A stretch of 64,000 nt of DNA from Eledone cirrhosa. Its lineage: Eukaryota. The notes below the pieces were generated by a model. It ran no database searches and was not told where the DNA came from. It was given only the letters and a program-made list of their open reading frames with translations. A program made the translations under genes and the position numbers. Location of the stretch: positions 80,352,001 through 80,416,000 of the forward strand of contig OZ024746.1 in the NCBI GenBank assembly GCA_964016885.1, read 5' to 3'. This document shows, one piece after another, positions 7,860 through 62,107 of this stretch (within the stretch, counting starts at the first letter, position 1; each line of letters opens with the position of its first letter).

Positions 7860-8584
7860 ATGCACACACGCACACACACACATACACAGACGCACGCATA
7901 GACACATACACAGACCGATTGGCGACTGACGCACGCACAGAGACACATACACTCACAGACATACACACATATATACACACAAACAGACACACATACATGC
8001 GCAGATAGACATACGTACGGGCACAGACATACACACATACACACATATACACACAAACAGAGACGCATACGTGCGCAGATAGACATACGTACGGGCACAG
8101 ACATACACACATACACACATATACACACACACACACACATACACGCACATACATACACACAGACATATACACACACACGCAGACAATCATTCAGACAGTC
8201 AGTCAGACAGCAAACAGAGAGGCACAACACATATACACAAGACTCACACAAACACACACAGACACTCATATAGACAAACAGACACATACAAACACAGACT
8301 CACACAAACACGCAAACACACACAGACACTCACAGAGAGACAAACACAGACTCATACAAACACACTCACACAAACACACAGACACAGAAACACACACAGA
8401 CACGTAAACACACATATGCATATGATTGAATCTCGCATTTGTTTCGACGAAAGAAATGTCCAGTTATGCAACCGACGCAACTACTTGCACGTTATATATT
8501 TAGTGGGTGAGTGCGCTGAAGATACCTCTACAGATACCTGTGTCCTCGGCGTAATTCTCAACAACGGCCAGACTCAGTGTGACT

Positions 8585-9441
8585 ACGTAACAAGACTGGA
8601 CCTTTTATTTACAGTTGCAGCCCAATGTATGTAACATGGCTGACCATCTAAATTATAGCTCTTGTCAAATTTATGTAACATGACTGGTATTTCAAATTAC
8701 AGCTCTGGTCAAATTTGTGTAACATGACTGGTATTTCAAATTACAGCTCTGGTCAAATTTATGTAACATGACTGGTATTTCAAATTACAGCTATGGTCAA
8801 ATTTATGTAACATGGCCGACTATTCAGATTACAGCCATGGTCAAATTTATGTAACAAGACTGGTCTTTCAAATTACATCTATGGTCAAATTTATGTAATA
8901 TGGCCGACTATTCAGATTACAGCCATGGTCAAATTTATGTAACAAGACTGGTCTTTCAAATTACATCTATGGTCAAATTTATGTAACATGGCCGACTATT
9001 CAAATTACATTTATGGTCAACTTTATGTAACATGGCTGGCCATTCAAATTACAGCTATGGTCAAATTTATGTAACAAAGCCGGCCATTCAAATTACAGTT
9101 ATGTAACATGGCCGACTATTCAGATTACAGTTATGGTCAAATTTATGTAACAAAGCCGGCCATTCAAATTACAGTTATGTAACATGGCCGACTATTCAGA
9201 TTACAGTTATGGTCAAATTTATGTAACAAAGCCGGCCATTCAAATTACAGTTATGTAACATGGCCGACTATTCAGATTACAGTTATGGTCAAATTTATGT
9301 AACAAAGCCGGCCATTCAAATTACAGTTATGTAACATGGCCGACTATTCAGATTACAGTTATGGTCAAATTTATGTAACAAAGCCGGCCATTCAAATTAC
9401 AGTTATGTAACATGGCCGACTATTCAGATTACAGCTCTGGT
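8585..9441. repeat. 44-bp minisatellite with 88-bp and 76-bp higher-order repeats
   Basis: Unit ~GGTCAAATTTATGTAACATGGCCGACTATTCAAATTACAGCTAT; CAAAGCCGGCC recurs at 9075, 9151, 9227, 9303 and 9379 (period 76). Confidence 0.95.
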
Positions 9442-10359
9442 CCATTACTGAGAGACAAACTTTTTATTCACTCGATCATACGCCAGCAAATACACACACA
9501 GAGACACAGACACACAGACCTGCGCACTAACACCCCTCCCCACAGACACACACACACGATATAAGTGCCCACGAGCATTAAAAGATTTTCAAGGTCTAAC
9601 TCCCTTTAAAAGACGTTTTCTAGAAGAATCATTGATATTATTATAAGAGGGTCGGGCACCATGCTTCGACGCATAGAGTTATGGCCCTTGCCATTCTGAG
9701 TTCAAATCCCGCCGAGGTTAACTTTGCCTTTCATCCTTACGGGGTCGATAAAATAAAATACCAGTAATGCACTGGGTAATTGCTGGCCTTGTGCCAAAAG
9801 TAGAAACAATTATTACAAAGTATATGGCACAGTGAATGTGAAGACCCAGTCTTCGGCAATGTGTCTGGATGAGTGTATATGCATGTTTGTATGTGTGTTT
9901 GTATATATATATATGTATGTGGTTGTACATATTCATGTATGTGCGTGTGTATACGCGCTCGTGCGTGTGCGTGTGTGTGTATATATATGGGTGTATATAT
10001 GTGTATGTATGTGTATGTCTTTGTGTGTGCGTGTGTGTGTATGTGAGTATGTGTGTGTGTATGTAAGTATGTGTGAATGAGCATGTGTGTGCGTGCGCGT
10101 ATGTGTATGTGTGTCTGTATGTGTACGTCTGTGTGCGCATGGGCGAGCGTGTGTGTATGTGTGTGTGTGTATGTAAGTATATGTGTGAGCGTGTGAGCGT
10201 GTGCGAGTGAATAAAAATGTCTGTCTGTGTGTGTATGTGCGAGTGTGTGTATGTGAGTATGTGTGTGTGTGTGTGTATGTGAGTAGGTGTGTGTGTGTGT
10301 CTGTGTGTGTATGTCTGTCTCTGTCTATATGTGTGCCTGTATATGTATGTATATCTCTC

Positions 10360-18251: not shown

Positions 18252-18754
18252 GTAGTTTAGAAAGCCACAACAATGCAGATGGGAAATCTCGAGGTAAGAA
18301 GTGAGTGAGAAATAGGAGAAAAGTGAAAATGAAAATGAAAATAAAACAAAGGTAGAAGGGTTACCGTCGTGGAGATTTAATCCCAATATTTCGGGCTCAC
18401 GCCCATCAACGGGGGAAAGTTCCAAAAGGGGGGGAACAGGCTAACCCGGAGAAAGTTGTATTGTCGTTAAAACATAGGAAAGCCGTTATGGGGAAAATTC
18501 AAACGAGGGAAAGAATGCACGTGCGCGTGATAGGCTGTGGCAAAAGCTACTGACCAATTGGGTTAAATCAATAGGGTGCGCTAGCGTGTGAAAGCCGTAA
18601 AATATGTGTGTGTAAATATATGTGTGTGTAACTGTGTGTGTATATGTGTATGTGTGTATGTATGTGAGTGTGTGTGTGTGAAAGATAGTGGGCCGTAGAA
18701 GCTGGAAAACAAAGAGTGTGAAAGGTGGTACATACATATATATATATATATATA

Positions 18755-19532
18755 TACAATATTAAATAAATGGAAACTATATTTATAAAACCATATTTAT
18801 TTCATTATATATATTTCAGGGATAACATATTAACAATATGCTATGCCTTCCTCAGACAAAATACAATATAAACAGTTTTATAGATAAATAGATTCGACAT
18901 ACCGTAACAACATCTACTTGCATTTGAGAAGGTTGATTTGGTTGTGACAAAATTGTACACAGAGAGAGAGAAAGAGAGAAAAAGAGAAAAAAGGAAAGAA
19001 AGACAGAAAACGAAGAAAAAGAAAAAAAGAAAAAGAAGAAATGCATGGAACAAAATAGAGAGATGGAAAGATAGATAAAGAGAAGAACTTCATGCAAAGA
19101 AACAGAAAGAGATATATATATAGAGAGAGAGAGGAAATAGATAGATACATATATAGAAAGCTAGGTAGTGGTACGACTGTTGAATAACGTATCAATGATA
19201 CATTTATTTATTTATTTATTTATTTAGCTCTAGTATTAATGTAAGGGAGATATATGGAGGGAAAACCAGCTGTTATATAGGGAGAGAAAAAAAATATAGA
19301 GAGAGAAAAAAAAGAGAGAGAGAAAATTCAAAAATATCCAGACACAGGCGGGGCGTAAAAATCCCTGTTTTAATGTAGAGGTAATAGTATTTACGAAACC
19401 AACCTCTGCATTGTAAATATCAGTATTCCTGAATGAGATATGTATCCACAATGTGTGAAAATTAATGATCTTATGTTTAGTTTTTTTAAAAATTCATATG
19501 TTTATGTGATAATTACAAACATCTATGTGAAT
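18755..19532 (-). repeat. 3' pseudo-LTR of the PLE
   Basis: Near-identical to 22600-23392; by eye only a few substitutions plus a length change in the GA-rich tract. Confidence 0.93.
18798..18863 (-). ncRNA. Minimal hammerhead ribozyme in the 3' pLTR
   Basis: Exact reverse complement of the 23520-23585 motif. Confidence 0.8.
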
Positions 19533-20252
19533 GTACATGATCAATTCTGCAAACCCTAAGTTCACAGAAAGTATTCTCAATGCGGTATAAAAATTTAAGT
19601 ATACATATATGTGTATATAGAGTCAATATTACTATTTCTGTCTCTACTCTACAAGATTATCTATCAAGCAAAGATAGAGCAGATTTCAATATACTAATAA
19701 AAATAAAAATAAAAATATATCGGAAACAAAACTAAACTAAAAATAAAAATAACAATAATAATAATAAGTAATAATAAAATAGAAAACTAAGAAATATTAC
19801 GAAAGAATATTACATATTAAAAATATTACATATTAAAAAATTTACATATTAAAAATATTAAAAATAAAAATTAGGAAATACTACATTAATAAAAATAAAA
19901 TAAACCACAAAGATCAACCCTTCAAAATTAATTGACAATATATTGCCAAGTTCATTATAAACATCAGAGTCGAAAAACAGATAAAGCCAAAAATTATCTA
20001 TCAAATCGCATCTAGCAAAGATCATTTCAAAAAGTATAGGATGCCCAATTTGGTCTACATGTGTTCTTATAATTAATATAGAAGTTTATCTAGTGTAACG
20101 TTTATTCGAAATATTTGGAGCATCAACTTTTAGGATAGCTTAATTTTTCATGAAGAATGTTTAAATAAATAAAATAAAAATAAAAAGAGTAAAAAGAGAA
20201 TCAAAGATTTATCGGCTAGTTTCCCATATAATTATAAATCAAACTAAATATA

Positions 20253-22465
20253 CTACATTTTAAATTTAAATTTATATTTAAACGTTGAGTTTAATCTATG
20301 TTTGCAACAACTGAATAAATTTGTCCGTAGATTAAGGGAATTTTTAGATTTTAGTATAAAGAATATCTCCTCTGCGCAGAGGTCACATGTCTCAGAGGAT
20401 GAATTAAAAGGAATCCCTCTTGAGACTATATTCCAAGCCATCGAATATCTAACGTTATCTAGCTTAAGTTGCCATAGTAGGCCTGATAGTGCCGTTGAAG
20501 ATTTTTTACTTGGATCTGTGAAAGAATTCTTGTGGTTATTATAGCGAAGTTTAAATTCCGTCGATGTGGAACCGACGTAGTTAAAAGAATTAGAGTCAGT
20601 ATTAACATTACAATTGTATACTATATTTTTAACTAAGCAGTTGTTATTTAACGGACATTTAGATCTATCTCTACAGTTACATTTGTTAACTTGTATATTA
20701 TTTATGCAGTTATCACTAGGCTTTAAGTTCCTATTATTTATTCTATTGATATTTTGTGCTAAATTTTTGGTGGATGAGTAGGTTAATTTAATTGTATGTC
20801 TATTGAAAATTGAGTGATATCTATGTGTTCTAGGGAAGCGATTATCAAGAGCTTTAAAAAATAGTTTAGCGATGTGGGTTTTAATGTTTAGTGAGAAAGG
20901 GGGGGGCAAACCAAATTATGTTCCTAGTTCTATTTCTTTTTTGGCTTTGGAATTATTGTAATGCTTTCTATTATAGTTGTTAAGGATGTTGCCGTAATTA
21001 AAAAAGTTGTTACTTTGTTTAGTTTGTCTATCATTATCTATGTACACAATCTTATCGGCGTATCCTGCTCTAGCTAATGCTTCATTGTAGTATTGGGCTT
21101 TTTCGTCGAAAATCTTTCTATTCGACGAGATCCTAGAGATACGTTTTTGGACAGAGTTTACTATAGTGTTTTTGACAGATCTGGGGTGGTTAGAGTTAAA
21201 GTTTACATAGTTTAAGTTTTCATTCAACTTGTGAAAAGGATAGTGAAGACATGTGTTGAGATTTAATGTTATATCTAGGAAATTGACTATTCTATGGTTG
21301 TTTTCAATTTCTATTTTAAGATTAAAGTAATTAAAAATTGTGTAATTTGTTTACATTTTCTATTTAGTTCAGAGTTATTATTATCAATAAGTAAAAGCAT
21401 GTCGTCTCTATATAAACCTCCGGTAGTACCGGGTATTTTCCTATGTAGCGAATTGATTAAAAATAAACCCACAAGGTCAGTTACCTGGGCTGAGTCGGAT
21501 GATCCCATAGTAATGTCAAAATTGCTATCTCTATCTGCTCTGGTCCATAGTTGGTCATTAAATTCTATCAAAGTTTTCCTAGCCGATAATATAATATGCA
21601 TTTCATTGCTAGTTAGGTCAGTATGTTTGAATGCGTAATTTAGTGCCTTATTTAGTAGATTAGGGGTAATAGAAGAATAATAGTTAGCTATATCAAGTTG
21701 AATAAACTTATTATTATTGTTATATTTAATTTGCTTAAACCACTCAACGACTTCTCCAGTTCCCTTCCACAAGCTCAGGTTAGATAAACAATCCAAGTTC
21801 TTAATTTGCTGTATCACCCTGTCAAGAATGTTTTTGCTTAATTTGCCCAGGTCCGATTTTGATGGTGCGATCAATCTAACTGGCAGGTCATTTTCAAAAT
21901 TCCGCTTGTGATCTTTCATATTGATCTTCGGTTTCCTGGGCACGAAAGGTTGTGTTCTGTTCTCAATTTCCAACTCGTGCATTATACAAGATGCTTCAAC
22001 ATTCATTTTCTCAAGCTCGGCCTTATCTGCTACCTTGTACTTTTTCCTCAGCTCTTTCAGTATGAGGCCATTATACATGTCTTTCTGCACTCCATAGAGG
22101 TTGTTGGTCTTGTCAGATTTCACCAAGATCTTCTCAGTTTTCTCTAAGCTCTCAATGTTATCCTTAATGCCTTTCAGATATTCCTGGCCTTTGAAGTTTC
22201 TCTTGAATTTGACCCCTTGTATGATAGAAATTATATCGTTTTCAAAGTCATATAAAAGTTTGTTAGGGGGTGGATTTCTTTTAGAATTGAAAACTTTGTT
22301 TAAGTCCGAGACATTTTCGTTTGTATTAGATTTATCAAAGTGGAATGCTCGCCACCTGATTCTCCTTATAAAAGAATCAGATTTATCTATTAATTGTTTT
22401 ATAAAGTCTTTGTTTCTAGGTAGAGGTATGTCTTTTAAAGAGGAAGTAATCTTAAAGAATTCCAT
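20253..22465 (-). pseudogene. PLE RT-endonuclease ORF, interrupted by about three 1-bp frameshifts
   Basis: ATG at 22465 (MEFFKITSSLKDIPLP). RT motifs FIQLDIANYYSSI, FDITMGSSDSAQV, GLYRDD and, after a frameshift near 21335, VNFLDITLNL. Thumb YVNFNSNHP. Linker KCNCRDRSKCPLNNNC. GIY-YIG-like NIVY...YVGST..FKLRYNNH, CDLC, NLRTNLFSCCKH. Split across track ORFs 21311-22495, 20916-21227 and 20253-20909. Confidence 0.93.
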
Positions 22466-22599
22466 TTTCCAGTTATAATATAAAGCGCTCAACAATATTG
22501 GAGCAAGATATATGGAAAGTTATATTTAAATTGTTGTGTTACAACTAGTAAATATTTATAACTGATATAAAAGCACTCGACAAATATTTGGAGTATATT

Positions 22600-23392
22600 T
22601 ACAATATTAAATAAATGGAAACTATATTTATAAAACCATATTTATTTCATTATATATATTTCAGGGATAACATATTAACAATATGCTATGCCTTCCTCAG
22701 ACAAAATACAATATAAACAGTTTTATAGATAAATAGATTCGACATACCGTAACAACATCTACTTGCATTTGAGAAGGTTGATTTGGTTGTGACAAAATTG
22801 TACACAGAGAGAAAGAAAGAGAGAGAGAAAGAGAGAAAAAGAGAGAAAAAGGAAAGAAAGACAGAAAACGAAGAAAAAGAAAAAAAGAAAAAGAAGAAAT
22901 GCATGGAACAAAATAGAGAGATGGAAAGATAGATAAAGAGAAGAACTTCATGCAAAGAAACAGAAAGAGATATATATATAGAGAGAGAGAGGAAATAGAG
23001 ATAGATACATATATAGAAAGCTAGGTAGTGGTACGACTGTTGAATAACGTATCAATGATACATTTATTTATTTATTTATTTATTTAGCTCTAGTATTAAT
23101 GTAAGGGAGATATATGGAGGGAAAACCAGCTGTTATATAGGGAGAGAAAAAAAATATAGAGAGAGAAAAAAAAGAGAGAGAGAAAATTCAAAAATATCCA
23201 GACACAGGCGAGGCGTAAAAATCTCTGTTTTAATGTAGAGGTGATAGTATTTACGAAACCAACCTCTGCATTGTAAATATCAGTATTCCTGAATGAGATA
23301 TGTATCCACAATGTGTGAAAATTAATGATCTTATGTTTAGTTTTTTAAAAAATTCATATGTTTATGTGATAATTACAAACATCTATGTGAAT
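22600..23392 (-). repeat. 5' pseudo-LTR of the PLE
   Basis: Direct repeat of 18755-19532; identity ends at ATCTATGTGAAT. Confidence 0.93.
22643..22708 (-). ncRNA. Minimal hammerhead ribozyme in the 5' pLTR
   Basis: Exact reverse complement of the 23520-23585 motif, ~180 nt upstream of the ORF ATG. Confidence 0.8.
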
Positions 23393-23712
23393 CTCTCTTT
23401 CTCTCTCTCTTTCTTTCTCTCTGTGTACAATTTTGTCACAACCAAATCAACCTTCTCAAATGCAAGTAGATGTTGTTACGGTATGTCGAATCTATTTATC
23501 TATAAAACTGTTTATATTGTATTTTGTCTGAGGAAGGCATAGCATATTGTTAATATGTTATCCCTGAAATATATATAATGAAATAAATATGGTTTTATAA
23601 ATATAGTTTCCATTTATTTAATATTGTAAATATACTCCAAATATTTGTCGAGTGCTTTTATATCAGTTATAAATATTTACTAGTTGTAACACAACAATTT
23701 AAATATAACTTT

Positions 23713-23720
<8 letters not shown>
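23393..23720 (+). repeat. Inverted partial pLTR of the PLE
   Basis: Reverse complement of ~22508-22835; extends ~90 bp further toward the ORF than the 3' pLTR does. Confidence 0.92.
23520..23585 (+). ncRNA. Minimal type I hammerhead ribozyme in the inverted pLTR
   Basis: TATTTTGT (helix I) - CTGAGGA - AGG.ATAGCATATT gtt AATATGTTAT.CCT (helix II) - GAAA - TATATA-T-A (palindromic mini helix III, AUA cleavage triplet) - ATGAAATA (helix I partner). Confidence 0.8.
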
Positions 23721-23751
<31 letters not shown>

Positions 23752-23754
<3 letters not shown>

Positions 23755-23948
23755 CGAAGGAAATGTGGTAAGGAACCAGGTGGACCATAACGCACCAAAG
23801 TACTCAATACTTGAGGTAGTAGAGTGGGTAATAGGAACGAGTAAGACCCCGACAGCTGAGCTCAAGCCGTTTCGACGGCTAATTCTGGACTGTGTCCAGA
23901 ATTAGCCGTCGAAACGGCTTGAGCTCAGCTGTCGGGGTCTTACTCGTT

Positions 23949-23952
<4 letters not shown>
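23752..23952 (-). mobile_element. Asymmetric hairpin element (family X), copy 1
   Basis: 59-bp perfect arms 23832-23890 and 23894-23952, loop TGT, 80-bp unpaired tail; (TA)n flanks. Confidence 0.85.
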
Positions 23953-24036
<84 letters not shown>

Positions 24037-24702
24037 CATATATGTATATATATATATATATAGGAACGAGTAAGACCCCGACAGCTGAGCTCAAGCCGTT
24101 TCGACGGCTAATTCTGGACACAGTCCAGAATTAGCCGTATATATATATATGTACTTACTAACATAGTAGTGTTTTCGCAATCAGGTGATACCGCACTGTA
24201 CTGGGACGATTTGATTCGAGACACGTATCCGCTCTCTCATTGAAATCAGGAATATTTCCTTGAATCATAATGAACTCTTTAGATATACCGATACACAAAC
24301 AAAACAACATGGATTATCAATAAAATTAATAAACTAATTGTATTAATAGCACGCGCGTTTGGTGTGTGTATGTATGTATGTGAATGTGTTTGTGAATATG
24401 TTTGTGTGATTGTGCATGTGTGCTTGTATGTTATGTCTGTGTGTTAGTATGTGTCTGTATGCATGTGTAAATAGGAAAGTTTTCTTCTCAAATATTTTCT
24501 ATTAAAGACATCTGTTTTTCTTCTCTTTGTGCAGAAAAGGAGATCGATCCAACTAGTTTCAGCTTTTGTGTAACAACACTTGAAACTAATCAAATCAATC
24601 CCACAAACAAAATCTATAGTGCAACAATCTTGTTTACTTTTCACATTGCGGCTACATAGGGTGTTTGATAAACACATACACATGCACACACACACATACA
24701 CA

Positions 24703-25264: not shown

Positions 25265-25718
<454 letters not shown>

Positions 25719-25722
<4 letters not shown>

Positions 25723-25943
25723 AACGAGTAGGACCCCGACGGCTGAGCTCAAGCCGTTTCGACGGCTAATTCTGGACTAAAAAAAAAAATTTTTTTTTTT
25801 TTTTTTAGTCCAGAATTAGCCGTCAAAACGGCTTGAGCTCAGCCGTCGGGGTCCTACTCGTTCCTATTACCCACTCTACTACCCTAAGTATTGAGTACTT
25901 GGGTGCGTTATGGTCCACCTGGTTCCTTACCACATTTCCTTCG

Positions 25944-25946
<3 letters not shown>
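25719..25946 (+). mobile_element. Asymmetric hairpin element (family X), copy 2
   Basis: Same arms and tail as copy 1; the apex is an A-run followed by a T-run; (TA)n flanks. Confidence 0.85.
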
Positions 25947-29875: not shown

Positions 29876-30362
29876 TTAGCGAACACAAAGTCGACCTACA
29901 ATTAGGAATGAGTAGCAAAGCAGTCAATAAGAGTAGGTCCTCAGAGTAATAACATTACGTTTAGATAGCTTGACAAATTGAAAATTGCGGCAGGCGAAAC
30001 CCAACCATTCAATACCAAAACAACGAAACAACTAATCAGGTTAAACAACAGACCTGGACAGATCGAACGATATTCTGCAATACGTCCGATATGTTTCTTT
30101 AGTATGGGATGCTTAAAGCGTCCGTAAGTGGTAGGCGGTTTTGAGCACTCGACGCTCTTACAGAGCAGAGTATCACATAAGAAACGGAGAATCAGTTTTG
30201 CGACGAATAAAATTTATTAGACATATTACAATCGTTTCTCTGGCGACCAGCTCGAGGCACGATCGATTCAATGATCGAACCTGACTCTGAAATCGTCAGA
30301 GAAACGATTGTAATATGTCTAATAAATTTTATTCGTCGCAAAACTGATTCTCCGTTTCTTAT

Positions 30363-30368
<6 letters not shown>
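29876..30368 (-). mobile_element. Hairpin-terminated repeat next to (TA)n
   Basis: ~75-bp inverted arms 30171-30245 and 30294-30368; the body 29876-30050 resembles 56980-57140. Confidence 0.7.
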
Positions 30369-43055: not shown

Positions 43056-43100
43056 ATAGTTGAAAATGAACGACCAAAACACAGGAGGTATATATATATA

Positions 43101-43290
43101 TAGGAAAAGAGTCGTGACCCCGGCGGCTGAGCTCCGGCCGTTTCGACAGCTAGGACCTAGCTGTCGAAACGGCCGGGGCTCAGCTGTCGAGGTCCTAACA
43201 TCTTTTTCTATTACCCACTCTACTACCCTAAGTATCGAGTACTCTGGTGTGTTATGGTCCACCTGGTTCCTTACCACACTTCCTTCGTTA
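43101..43290 (+). mobile_element. Asymmetric hairpin element (family X), copy 3, more diverged
   Basis: TAGGAA...GCCGTTTCGACAGCTAGG a CCTAGCTGTCGAAACGGC... followed by the same tail ending CCTTCGTTA. Confidence 0.82.
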
Positions 43291-48342: not shown

Positions 48343-48733
48343 TGGTGGATTGGCAGTATCGGTAGAGGGTCGGACGTCATGCTTTGACGCATAGAGTTAC
48401 GGCCCTTTCCATTCTGAGTTCAAATCCCGCCGAGTTTAACTTTGCTTTTCATCCTTACGGGGGTCGATAAAATAAAGTACCAGTAATACACTGGATAATT
48501 GCTGGCCTTGTGCCAAAAGTAGAAACAATTATTATTATAATTGAAAGGCGGTAGATTGGCAGTATCGGTATAAGGTCGGACGCCGTGGTTTGCAGCATGG
48601 AATTACGGCCCTTTACGGTCTGAGTTCAAATCCCGCCGAGGTTAACTTTGCCTTTCATCCTTACGGGGTCGATAAAATAAAGTACCAGTAATACACTGGA
48701 ATAATTGCTGGTCTTGTGCCAAAAGTAGAAATA
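48343..48733 (+). mobile_element. Two head-to-tail SINE family A copies
   Basis: 48343-48530 and 48545-48733, separated by an (ATT)n tail. Confidence 0.9.
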
Positions 48734-49018
48734 ATTATAATTGAAGCATTGAGTTCAACACAATATGCCTCGTTTCGCATATTGACGCGTGCACACATAC
48801 ACACACACGTGTGTGTATGTGTATACATATGTTCTTATCAAAAAACACTCGATTATTGGCTCGTACGAGTCTTCCCAGCTGCCTGTTCGGGTCATTTTGC
48901 AGTCTGAACAAAATATTATGCACTTCAACCCAACCCTCGAGCACGAAATTACATTCTCCAGTGGATGGATTATGAGGAAGATATATGTTTATATATACTA
49001 TATATATATGTGTGTGTA

Positions 49019-50286: not shown

Positions 50287-50369
<83 letters not shown>

Positions 50370-50459
50370 GTAATTCCGTCGGAAAAGTCCAGGAAAAAAG
50401 AGTGCTCTATGTAGGTAACAGAGCTTAATAGTTATGTAATAAACAACATAAGGCAATTA

Positions 50460-50520
50460 TTTCATTTACCAGTGGTTTCTTGAAAGCAAACAAATTTTGC
50501 TTTCAATCATCAGAATGAAA
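50460..50520 (-). ncRNA. Canonical type I hammerhead ribozyme (second, inverted copy)
   Basis: Reverse complement of 51622-51682 except helix III loop ACT instead of TCT. Confidence 0.9.
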
Positions 50521-51621
50521 AAATCCTGGTGTATTTATTGGCATTGGATTTTAAAAACAAAAATATAATCTATATGAAAGTGAGGCTGGAAAAGGAAGAA
50601 GGAAAGGAAAAATAAACACACATGCAAACACACACGCACACACACACACAATTATATACATACACATATATATATATATACATACACACATACATACACA
50701 CACACATATACACACACACACACATACACATATATATGTGTATATATATACATACACATACATATACACATACATACATACACACATAATTATCAACATA
50801 TCCATACATACAAATACACAAACGTGCATACACACACACACACATATATATACATGCATATATATATATATACATAAACATATATATACATACATACATA
50901 CATACATACACACACATACATATATATACACATATATATATACCTATATATATACACATACATATACATACATATATACATACACATACATACACACATA
51001 TATACACGCATACATACACGCATACATACGCATGCACAAATATAGAAATATGTACACACACCTCTATTATATTTTTTCTTATATTTATTTGTGTGTGAGT
51101 ATGTAGAGGTGTGTAAATATTTCTATATTTGTGCATGCGTATGTATGCGTGTATATATGTGTGTATGTATGTGTATGTATATATGTATGTATATGTATGT
51201 GTATATATATATGTATATATATATGTGTATATATATGTATGTGTGTGTATGTATGTATGTATATATATGTTTATGTATATATATATATATGCATGTATAT
51301 ATATGTGTGTGTGTGTGTATGCACGTTTGTGTATTTGTATGTATGTGTATGTATGGATATGTTGATAATTATGTGTGTATGTATGTATGTGTGTATGTAT
51401 GTGTATGTATATATATACACATATATATGTGTGTGTGTGTATGTGTGTGTGTATGTATGTGTGTATGTTTATATATATGTGTATGTATATAATTGTGTGC
51501 GTGTGTGTGTGTGTTTGCATGTGTGTTTATTTTTCCTTTCCTTCTTCCTTTTCCAGCCTCACTTTCATATAGATTATATTTTTGTTTTTAAAATCCAATG
51601 CCAATAAATACACCAGGATTT

Positions 51622-51682
51622 TTTCATTCTGATGATTGAAAGCAAAATTTGTTTGCTTTCAAGAAACCTCTGGTAAATGAAA
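51622..51682 (+). ncRNA. Canonical type I hammerhead ribozyme
   Basis: TTTCATT - CTGATGA - TTGAAAGCAAA atttg TTTGCTTTCAA (11-bp helix II) - GAAA - CC tct GG - TA (GUA triplet, cleavage predicted after 51675) - AATGAAA (7-bp helix I). All core nucleotides present. Confidence 0.9.
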
Positions 51683-51730
51683 TAATTGCCTTATGTTGTT
51701 TATTACATAACTATATATATATATATATAT

Positions 51731-52040
51731 TATACTTTGGGACAGTCATGCTGCCAATTATAACACACGCACCTGTCGGTTTTCACTTCGATTTACTACA
51801 ATTTTGCAGTTGTTTGGTTTAATAACCAGATGGTTGTTTATTTATTGTCAAAGCTCTTTTGTCACACTTTTTGTGGCTCCCTCAGTGACTAATTTGTTAT
51901 TTGGTATCCCTCCTTTGTTCTGTCCTACACCATATTGTTTTAGTGAGGTGTGTACTTGACCTGTGTGTGTGAGTTCGTCTGCGTATGTTGCGACCGATAT
52001 GATATGAACTGTATATTTGAATCGAAAACCATCGAACGTA
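51731..52040 (-). mobile_element. pLTR-like repeat (family Y), degenerate HHR
   Basis: Aligns by eye with 25376-25632 (ATGGTTGTTTA..TATTGTCAAAGCTCTTT.GTCACAC, CTCAGTGACTA). Confidence 0.6.
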
Positions 52041-54266: not shown

Positions 54267-54359
54267 CAAGTGTGAGTGTGTGAGTCTGTATAAGAGATTC
54301 AATATCAATTGAGAATCTAAATATACAACCGTTCGGTCGTTTTCTATTCATATAGACAG

Positions 54360-54618
54360 TTCATATGATATCGGTCGCAACGTGCGCAGACGAACTTTCA
54401 CACATATGTCAAGTACACAGCTCACAAAAACAAGATGGTGTAGGACAGAACGAAATAGTCACTGAATGGTCACAGTATGTGTGACGAAAGAGTATTGACA
54501 ATCAACAACTAAACAACCATCCAGTTATTAAACTAACCGACTTTGAGTTTATAATAGATTAGACTGAAAACTAACAGGTGCGTGTGTTTTGATTAGCAGC
54601 ATGACTCTCCCAAAGTAT
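54360..54618 (+). mobile_element. pLTR-like repeat (family Y) with degenerate HHR
   Basis: GTCA-CTGAATG-GTCACA gtatg TGTGAC-GAAA-GAGT-AT-TGAC at ~54458-54499; homologous to 25376-25632(-) and 51731-52040(-). Confidence 0.6.
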
Positions 54619-54676
54619 ACACACACACACACACATATATATATGTATATATATATACATATATATATACATATAT

Positions 54677-54705
<29 letters not shown>

Positions 54706-54711
<6 letters not shown>

Positions 54712-56081
54712 GTTATATTTGGGGAGGGTCATATTTGCGTAATATTGCCAGAATTAATAACAGAACACACTCACTGTTTGGTTGGTTTTCGCTTCTCGCT
54801 GTCTTTTATATATATATATATCTGCGATCTAACTTACTCGGTCCTCAATGTTGCCATTGACTGACCGGCGGTCAAAAATAATACAGATACAATATAGACA
54901 CAAACACATATATATAGTTTACATAATTTACATAAATCTTTCGTTGCACATCTGCAACATCGTCAGTGGTGTTATATTCATTGTTCCTCCTGTTGTGTTG
55001 TATGTCTACGCCATTTTTTTTGTTCAGTCTGTCTATATATTTATTTATTTATTTGCTTGTTTGTTTATCTTATTTTATTTTGTCTTCTTTGCGCATGCGT
55101 TTGCGTGTGTGTATAGTGTTATGTGTGATGTGTGACTAGTGTGTATAGTGTTGTGTCTGCTGGGTGACTAGTGTGTGTTTATGTGCTTGTGTATGTATTT
55201 ATTTATCTTATTTTATTTAATTTTATTTACTTATTTATACTTCTCTTAGGTCAGTGACCTAAGAGAAGTATAAATAAGTATATATATAGGTCAGTGACCT
55301 AAGAGAAGTATAAATAAGTAAATAAAATTAAATAAAATAAGATAAATAAATACATACATGTATTTATATACATATTAATATGTATTTATTTATCTTATTT
55401 TATTTAATTTTATTTACTTATTTATACTTCTCTTAGGTCAGTGACCTAAGAGAAGTATAAATAAGTATATATATAGGTCAGTGACCTAAGAGAAGTATAA
55501 ATAAGTAAATAAAATTAAATAAAATAAGATAAATAAATACATACACAAGCACATAAACACACACTAGTCACCCAGCAGACACAACACTATACACACTAGT
55601 CACACATCACACATAACACTATACACACACGCAAACGCATGCGCAAAGAAGACAAAATAAAATAAGATAAACAAACAAGCAAATAAATAAATAAATATAT
55701 AGACAGACTGAACAAAAAAAATGGCGTAGACATACAACACAACAGGAGGAACAATGAATATAACACCACTGACGATGTTGCAGATGTGCAACGAAAGATT
55801 TATGTAAATTATGTAAACTATATATATGTGTTTGTGTCTATATTGTATCTGTATTATTTTTGACCGCCGGTCAGTCAATGGCAACATTGAGGACCGAGTA
55901 AGTTAGATCGCAGATATATATATATAAAAGACAGCGAGAAGCGAAAACCAACCAAACAGTGAGTGTGTTCTGTTATTAATTCTGGCAATATTACGCAAAT
56001 ATGACCCTCCCCAAATATAACAATATCTGTTTCGACACACGATTTCATATAAAAAAACCTCGCAAAACTAATTCATCGCCG

Positions 56082-56082
<1 letters not shown>
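54706..56082. mobile_element. 1.3 kb palindromic (fold-back) element in (TA)n with nested hairpin core
   Basis: Identical ORF translations 54848-55135(+) and 55600-55887(-) show the inverted arms. Right arm extends to 56082. HHR-like CTGACGA-T-GTTGCA gatg TGCAAC-GAAA-GATT-TA at 55769-55802 and its mirror near 54933-54966. Confidence 0.85.
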
Positions 56083-61892: not shown

Positions 61893-61895
<3 letters not shown>

Positions 61896-62100
61896 CTAAG
61901 GAATTGTGGTAAGGAACCAGATGGACCATAACGCACCAGAGTACTCAATACTTAGGGTAGTAGAGTGGGAAATAGGAAAAAGTATGACCCCGACGGCAGA
62001 GCTCAAGCCGTTTCAACGGCTATTTCTGGACTAAAAAAAAAGTCCAGAAATAGCCGTCGAAACGGCTTGAGCTCTGCCGTCGGAGTCATACTTTTTCCTA
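61893..62100 (-). mobile_element. Asymmetric hairpin element (family X), copy 4
   Basis: Same tail and hairpin; A-rich apex; (TA)n flanks. Confidence 0.85.
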
Positions 62101-62107
62101 TATATAC

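What the first reader, a model, noticed from the sequence alone, without database searches (positions are those of the whole stretch)
50367..51713. Non-coding 1.35 kb fold-back element carrying two intact canonical hammerhead ribozymes
Seen: inverted arms of ~620 bp flanked by (TA)n, with no ORF. Each arm has a complete type I HHR (7-bp helix I, CUGAUGA, 11-bp helix II, GAAA, 3-bp helix III, GUA triplet). The only difference inside the two ribozymes is in the helix III loop. Each arm also carries ~450 bp of mixed TA/CA microsatellite. Established: PLE pseudo-LTRs carry type I HHRs, and retrozymes are non-autonomous HHR retroelements. Inference: this is a non-autonomous ribozyme retroelement (or the pLTR-only product of an unseen PLE family, unrelated in sequence to the PLE at 18.7-23.7 kb) that also disperses microsatellites. 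Read-through transcription would give a long dsRNA, a likely ADAR or siRNA substrate.
Basis: partly seen in the sequence, partly recalled or inferred. Interest (0 to 1): 0.82.

Follow-up and report, generated by a model that had tools for sequence, protein, structure and literature searches.

The report
Truncated Penelope fold-back with twin hammerheads
This 1.35-kb hairpin-shaped insert is two back-to-back copies of one highly repeated sequence end, each with an intact hammerhead ribozyme motif; it is most likely the ordinary shortened leftover of a Penelope-like jumping gene rather than a new ribozyme element.

Summary
In detail: two inverted arms (639 and 611 nt), each with an intact type I hammerhead, differing only at 51669, in (TA)n. 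One inverted copy, a one-sided tail, a hammerhead near the end and a (TA)n target are the published signature of Penelope-like element (PLE) insertions. The same build occurs 3 kb away (54707-56082) and on a Hydra-type PLE at 18749-23720. The family is abundant: 3,972 contigs of run X1 lie on 271 nt. Other copies stop at the same two end points, beside microsatellite. The helix III (4 pairs, 1-nt centre, palindromic) matches published Hydra-clade hammerheads, closest Hydra-1_oBim. It is not a retrozyme: the ribozymes are on opposite strands, so no transcript has two in sense, and a read-through RNA is predicted to lose the fold. The autonomous parent was not found (no genome held), so a non-autonomous PLE derivative stays open (about 17%). 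Cleavage and expression are untested. Ordinary; probably an uncatalogued family of a known kind.

The parts
50310..50366 (.). (TA)n at the left end, likely target site (preceded by (TC)n)
   Evidence: sequence
50367..50427 (-). 61-nt one-sided extension (PLE tail), absent from the right arm
   Evidence: alignment; other copies end at 50365 and at 50428 next to microsatellite, table 7
50428..51066 (-). left arm, 639 nt (5'-truncated element end, sense on minus strand)
50460..50520 (-). type I hammerhead, core CUGAUGA 50513-50507, predicted cut after 50467; palindromic helix III as in the family majority
50613..51066 (-). mixed TA/CA microsatellite of the left arm, 454 nt
51067..51103 (+). 37-nt unpaired spacer, T-rich on +, probably the further 5' sequence of the right arm
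   Evidence: assignment inferred from strand composition
51104..51714 (+). right arm, 611 nt, ending 39 nt after the predicted cut site
51104..51529 (+). mixed TA/TG microsatellite of the right arm, 426 nt
51622..51682 (+). type I hammerhead, core 51629-51635, predicted cut after 51675; private change at 51669 weakens the helix III palindrome
51712..51730 (.). (TA)n at the right end (first three letters shared with the arm end)
   Evidence: sequence

Best explanation
The insert is two head-to-head copies of the 3' end of one abundant repeat, and it is most likely a 5'-truncated insertion of an endonuclease-bearing Penelope-like retroelement, probably of the Hydra clade. Shown: the geometry, the two hammerheads, the one-sided tail, the abundance and the two recurring end points. 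Inferred: the PLE protein nicked a (TA)n site and primed reverse transcription from two start points in the element RNA, 39 and 100 nt past the hammerhead cut site. Both cDNAs stopped after 650-700 nt, inside the microsatellite-rich 3' UTR, and were joined at their truncated ends, so no ORF was copied. The ribozymes are passengers of the terminal repeat, where they would work as dimers in tandem same-strand RNA of the parent. At this locus each transcript would carry one sense and one preceding antisense copy, so the insert is likely dead.
For: (1) Published PLE anatomy: an inverted 5'-truncated copy adjoining the 5' end, and a tail on one end only (PMC8557442 passages; PMC3846280 passages). 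The tail equals the stretch between two RT start sites, and both target strands are extended in vitro (PMC11167929). Opposite-strand hammerhead pairs about 100-700 bp apart were already noted and linked to truncated PLEs (PMC4209133). (2) Internal control: the PLE at 18749-23720 has hammerheads at 18855(-), 22700(-) and 23528(+), a 329-nt inverted pLTR, unequal ends (57 vs 143 nt past the cut) and TA flanks. Its protein has RWR, DKT, CxCX5C, CxxC and CxH, the Hydra marks of PMC8557442 section 11. Its stop codon lies 1,504 nt from the 3' end, so copies under 1.5 kb would be ORF-less. (3) A second ORF-less fold-back with two hammerhead cores and a one-sided extension lies at 54707-56082. (4): 3,972 contigs in X1, 43 in X4, 18 in X6, 6 in X7. 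Loose ends run into TA-rich sequence at 50428 (32 contigs in X1, 1 in X7) and into (GT)n or (TA)n at 50365 (1 in X4, 1 in X7). (5) Helix III here is ACCA-C-UGGU; Hydra-1_oBim has ACCA-A-UGGU. By my count 16 of 25 Hydra families in File S2 have this 4-1-4 form, and Penelope-13_HM has hammerheads on both strands through an inverted copy. (6) Both arms carry G at 50541, where 92.5% of X1 depth has A, pointing to one donor.
Against: No coding sequence of this family was seen: there is no genome; tblastn with 10 homologues hit only the 20.3-22.5 kb element; and none of the shown loose ends at the tail end runs into non-repetitive sequence (162 loose ends not shown). The tail (61 nt) is longer than the 30-40 nt usually reported, although the neighbouring PLE's two ends differ by 86 nt. 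No TSD can be read inside (TA)n. The clade rests on the ribozyme's form and the target, not on a protein.
Confidence: 0.75

Rival explanations
1. A non-autonomous PLE derivative with its own master copies (hammerhead end plus microsatellite body, about 0.7 kb), moved in trans by a PLE protein, which lays it down as fold-backs.
For: Very high multiplicity in X1 (3,972 contigs; crude bounds about 2,400 to 129,000 ends, though the tool warns depth is no copy number) with no ORF link seen. The two arms truncate within 37 nt of each other. Non-autonomous PLE families exist (MRC1), and pLTR-derived retrozymes are proposed.
Against: Summed depth in X1 falls from 1.35 M beside the cut site to about 0.1-0.2 M 100 nt upstream, as variable 5' truncation would give (subfamily divergence could also do this). 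A neighbouring autonomous PLE shows the same geometry and a 1.5-kb 3' UTR.
Confidence: 0.17
2. A single insertion was later folded back at the DNA level (replication template switch), or the assembly made a false inversion.
For: Both arms share a rare allele. The centre was not spanned by any read or contig that I laid (one search covered 50355-50625 only).
Against: The arms stop at different element positions that recur in other contigs and runs. The flanks are not inverted. The arms differ by 7 mismatches and 7 gap runs and have a 37-nt spacer. The same build recurs in unrelated families in this window.
Confidence: 0.05
3. A retrozyme: a self-cleaving unit released by two hammerheads, circularised and reinserted.
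For: Intact type I hammerheads with a conserved core. One X1 contig shows a joint going back 111 nt (depth 3.6), which could be a short tandem.
Against: The hammerheads are on opposite strands, so no monomer can be cut out. In full-length read-through RNA helices I, II and III have pairing probability 0.000 on both strands. Arms of 611-700 nt exceed the 150-450 nt repeats described, though consensus lengths up to 972 bp are reported. The tandem-type joint is 1 of 3,972 contigs.
Confidence: 0.03

Closest known systems
Hydra-clade PLEs, closest Hydra-1_Obim of Octopus bimaculoides and Penelope-13_HM (Craig et al. 2021, PMC8557442; section 11, passages and Files S1/S2 read)
   Same: Type I hammerhead near the 3' end with a palindromic 4-1-4 helix III (ACCA-n-UGGU in Hydra-1_oBim), (TA)n target, fixed 3' termini, inverted truncated copy giving hammerheads on both strands (Penelope-13_HM).
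   Different: Helix I and II sequences differ from Hydra-1_oBim; helix II is 11 bp (longest stem II among the Hydra rows is 7). Three short motifs of this family gave 0 hits in the supplement (line and column breaks can hide hits). No protein is known for this family.
Inverted-pLTR insertions of Adineta vaga and Drosophila virilis Penelope (PMC3846280 passages) and Anolis PAc (PMC11167929 passages and part of main text)
   Same: Head-to-head inverted terminal repeats, tail on one arm only, two reverse-transcription start sites, AT-rich targets.
   Different: No ORF between the arms, tail 61 nt, no readable TSD, no palindrome at the junction (37-nt spacer instead), long microsatellite in the arms.
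PLE minimal/type I hammerheads (Cervera and De la Pena 2014, PMC4209133, parts 1-2 of 4 read)
   Same: Long helix II, short palindromic helix III suited to dimer action, pairs on opposite strands at truncated insertions.
   Different: Lacks the conserved G10.1-C11.1 pair and the extra base after A9; the pair is 1,116 nt apart, beyond the 100-700 bp quoted.
Metazoan non-LTR retrozymes (PMC7229834 passages; bioRxiv 10.64898/2026.07.22.740005 parts 1-3 of 5)
   Same: Non-coding, type I hammerhead, thought to depend on PLEs.
   Different: Retrozymes are head-to-tail same-strand repeats that give circular RNA; this is a single head-to-head pair with a PLE tail.

Membership tests
EN+ Penelope-like element insertion | type I hammerhead in the terminal repeat near the 3' end | tested here: met
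   ends 39 and 100 nt past the cut
EN+ Penelope-like element insertion | 5'-truncated copy with adjoining inverted copy | tested here: met
EN+ Penelope-like element insertion | tail on one end only; two recurring 3' termini among copies | tested here: met
   61-nt tail; loose ends at 50428 and 50365; longer than the usual 30-40 nt
EN+ Penelope-like element insertion | RT plus GIY-YIG ORF in full-length members of the family | not testable with these tools
   no genome held; none in this copy or elsewhere in the window; pattern scans blank
EN+ Penelope-like element insertion | target-site duplication | tested here: inconclusive
   both ends lie in (TA)n
Hydra clade | (TA)n target and hammerhead with palindromic helix III | tested here: met
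   against File S1/S2; suggestive, not exclusive to Hydra
Hydra clade | RWK, DKT, CxCX5C protein motifs, no CCHH | not testable with these tools
   no protein for this family; met only by the unrelated neighbour at 20253-22462
Non-LTR retrozyme | head-to-tail repeats with two or more same-strand hammerheads | tested here: not met
   opposite strands; one tandem-type joint among 3,972 X1 contigs
Non-LTR retrozyme | monomer-length linear and circular RNA | not testable with these tools
   no RNA run was available to lay
Canonical type I hammerhead | conserved core and three helices | tested here: met
   none of 10 common variant positions in the motif falls in the 12 core or 7 helix III positions
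Canonical type I hammerhead | G10.1-C11.1 pair at the base of helix II | tested here: not met
   U-A here; the unrelated neighbouring PLE has A-U at the same place
Canonical type I hammerhead | self-cleavage; loop 1-loop 2 tertiary contacts | not testable with these tools
   needs a bench assay
MITE / fold-back DNA transposon | terminal inverted repeats that begin at both element ends | tested here: not met
   left end has 61 unmatched nt; no transposase link tested

The most novel reading that the evidence does not exclude
A recently exploded, non-autonomous, SINE-like parasite of Hydra-clade PLEs: a 0.7-kb hammerhead-plus-microsatellite unit present in thousands of copies in one species and laid down mostly as fold-backs, seeding compound microsatellites and perfect several-hundred-bp dsRNA substrates for ADAR or RNAi across a mollusc (probably octopus) genome.
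Probability: 0.12. Interest if true: 0.5.

Novelty: new member of a known kind. Interest (0 to 1): 0.2.

Why it matters
As a single locus it matters little. It documents a probably uncatalogued, very abundant hammerhead-bearing PLE family and shows that two-ribozyme fold-backs are routine PLE debris in this genome, which a ribozyme or MITE scan could misfile. If most of the thousands of copies are fold-backs, PLE insertion would be a notable source of long dsRNA and compound microsatellites; that can be counted directly in an assembly. The two fixed end points also give a ready test of the two-start-site model outside Anolis.

Tried and rejected
Rfam: 0 matches at gathering score in 64 kb; 6 chance-level matches and no hammerhead at E<=10 in 51530-51730. 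I take this as a coverage gap, since Rfam also missed the hammerheads of the neighbouring PLE. Own genome: not held. Pattern scans for other copies: 0 in metagenome contigs, genome contigs and viral contigs; these collections are mostly prokaryotic or viral, so this says nothing about the host genome. Sequencing runs: no RNA holder listed. Earlier findings: nothing by sequence, place or the first word set. Pfam found no family on the two ORF pieces of the neighbouring PLE, and PDB gave no significant hit; its identity rests on 10 homologues at 34-43% identity, an Atlas GIY-YIG cluster at 0.96 (23% of members carry the family) and motifs. A 316-codon open frame over the microsatellite was rejected as low-complexity. 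The idea that copies are cut off at the ribozyme cleavage site was rejected: the depth decline centres near loop II (about 50490), not 50467. Literature searches showed no paper on this family; PMC13282606 (passages) lists 31 recently active Penelope-like families in Octopus vulgaris with no mention of ribozymes. Its supplements and Repbase/Dfam were not seen, so the family may already be catalogued there.

Full report
Observation. The element is real. The arms are 50428-51066 (639 nt) and 51104-51714 (611 nt), with 594 matches, 7 mismatches and 7 gap runs, around a 37-nt spacer. Their non-repetitive 185 nt differ at one base, 51669/50473. Each holds a type I hammerhead with helices of 7, 11 and 3 bp and a GUA triplet; predicted cuts are after 51675 (+) and 50467 (-). 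Strict and looser descriptors each gave 2 hits in the window and 0 in 100 shuffles. The isolated motif folds as a hammerhead, with a weak helix III. Rfam does not recognise it. Two corrections: the base pair under helix II is U-A, not the conserved G10.1-C11.1, and the left arm alone has a 61-nt extension, 50367-50427.

The window supplies its own control. The element at 18749-23720 has hammerheads at 18855(-), 22700(-) and 23528(+), a 329-nt inverted copy of its terminal repeat that is 100% identical to the adjoining direct copy, ends 57 and 143 nt past the cut site, and TA at both ends. Its frameshifted ORF matches 10 of 4,327 candidate proteins of 700-800 aa at 34-43% identity. It carries RWR, DKT, CxCX5C, CxxC and CxH, the Hydra-clade marks in PMC8557442 section 11. 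Its stop codon is 1,504 nt from its 3' end, and that stretch is T-rich on the sense strand (46% T) with simple repeats, like the arms here (46-48% T). A copy truncated below 1.5 kb would therefore be an ORF-less hammerhead fragment. A relaxed scan found a second ORF-less fold-back at 54707-56082, with hammerhead cores at 54966(-) and 55769(+), a one-sided extension and TA flanks, and a third at 30171-30368 with one core. These families do not match the finding in sequence.

Other copies. No genome is held. Seven of 11 listed runs hold the unique part or a piece of it, in four coded organisms and three studies; I laid 4 of the 11 on 50355-50625. X1 gave 3,972 contigs, X4 43, X6 18 and X7 6. The tool warns that summed depth is no copy number; crude bounds for X1 are about 2,400 to 129,000 ends, and the contig count alone shows a large family. 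Whether the few contigs in X4 and X6 are native to those organisms or carry-over cannot be told. Loose ends run into TA-rich sequence at 50428 (32 X1 contigs, 1 in X7) and into (GT)n or (TA)n at 50365 (1 in X4, 1 in X7). These are the two end points of this insert. Depth over the tail is 0.41 of the peak in X1. No shown loose end at the tail continues into unique sequence, but 162 loose ends were not shown. Ten variant positions of 3% or more fall in the 61-nt ribozyme. None is in the 12 core or 7 helix III positions (P 0.09 for the core alone, 0.016 for both; three table rows were not shown). The two commonest stem variants keep pairing as G-U (50462, 47%; 50482, 59%); N7 varies (35%); four are in loop II. 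Three helix II variants break a pair (3%, 13%, 15%). One X7 contig keeps helix I, helix III and a CUGACGA core with a different helix II. This fits a ribozyme kept by selection in the parent elements but does not show activity. Both arms carry an allele that under a tenth of X1 depth has (50541), so they came from one donor. The 51669 change is not among the listed variants and looks private.

Literature. PLE insertions are usually 5'-truncated, often have an inverted truncated copy at the 5' end and a 30-40 bp tail at one end, and several clades target (TA)n (PMC8557442 passages). Adineta copies show the same and head-to-head junctions (PMC3846280 passages). In vitro the Anolis PLE protein cuts and extends both strands of AT-rich DNA and starts at two internal RNA sites whose spacing equals the tail; its hammerhead needs protein and is not required for insertion (PMC11167929). 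Opposite-strand hammerhead pairs near each other were reported and linked to truncated PLEs; such motifs cleave poorly and as dimers (PMC4209133). File S2 of PMC8557442 shows helix III as a 4-1-4 palindrome in 16 of 25 Hydra families (my count). Hydra-1_oBim has ACCA-A-UGGU against ACCA-C-UGGU here, and Penelope-13_HM has hammerheads on both strands through an inverted copy. Helices I and II differ from Hydra-1_oBim, so this is another family.

Mechanism. Shown: anatomy, abundance, two end points, one donor. Inferred: a PLE protein nicked (TA)n and primed two cDNAs from the two start sites, 39 and 100 nt past the cut; both stopped in the microsatellite-rich 3' UTR and were joined head to head. 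Self-priming fold-back of one cDNA (proposed in PMC3846280) is not excluded, though there is no junction palindrome. The family helix III can pair with a second copy of itself (-9.6 kcal/mol, against -6.5 for the right-arm variant), the dimer mode. Here each strand has one sense ribozyme preceded by its antisense copy, and in the full read-through RNA all three helices have pairing probability 0.000. Even a single whole arm is predicted to lose helix I (probability 0.000 and 0.005). The insert is therefore unlikely to self-cleave or to act as a retrozyme.

Host. The genome is probably a mollusc, likely an octopus. This rests on my recollection of the SINE near 48344-48742 and the microsatellite density (no call), on Atlas clusters whose commonest phylum is Mollusca from one or two records each, and on the Hydra-1_oBim likeness.

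Earlier scan notes describe the same pattern in other genomes; they are unchecked AI notes and not independent support.

Verdict. A real, tidy, fairly young example of a known insertion pattern, from a probably uncatalogued family. PLE-truncation 0.75, non-autonomous derivative 0.17, DNA-level fold-back or artefact 0.05, retrozyme 0.03. Interest 0.2.

Noticed in passing
window 23754-23953, 24063-24138, 25718-25944, 43100-43288, 61895-62101: A family of small palindromes in (TA)n, four of five with a one-sided tail of about 80 nt. Each arm looks like the 3' half of a hammerhead (GAAA, a palindromic helix III-like hairpin, GUC; one arm has AAAA) with no CUGANGA, and the palindrome centre sits where helix II/loop II would be. 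This suggests fold-back at the ribozyme's helix II. No full-length parent was seen.
   Followed up: partly
window 54707-56082: Second ORF-less fold-back of another family: hammerhead cores at 54966(-) and 55769(+) with an extra base after A9 and G-C at the helix II base, one-sided extension of about 57 nt, (TA)n on both sides, and nested inner inversions at 55190-55543.
   Followed up: partly
window 30171-30368: Short fold-back with one complete hammerhead core at 30299(-); the inversion joint sits directly 5' of the core with a 4-nt overlap.
   Followed up: partly
window 18749-23720 (-): Near full-length Hydra-type PLE with a frameshift near 21335, two direct terminal repeats (97.5% alike) and a 329-nt inverted copy; its protein has Hydra motifs and an Asn-rich stretch before the endonuclease.
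   Followed up: yes
window 51730-52038, 25377-25617, 54330-54619: An older repeat family ends in the same (TA)n as the right arm; the 25377-25617 copy has a hammerhead core at 25540(-), and its last 25 nt resemble the short end of the 54707-56082 element. (TA)n sites appear to be hit repeatedly.
   Followed up: partly
X1, window 50455-50524: Summed depth drops about fourfold between the helix III side and the CUGAUGA side of the ribozyme. Loop II variability, subfamilies, or many copies ending or folding back at helix II could explain it; no such joint was listed.
   Followed up: no
window 8584-9442: Minisatellite array with 44, 88 and 76-nt periods.
   Followed up: no
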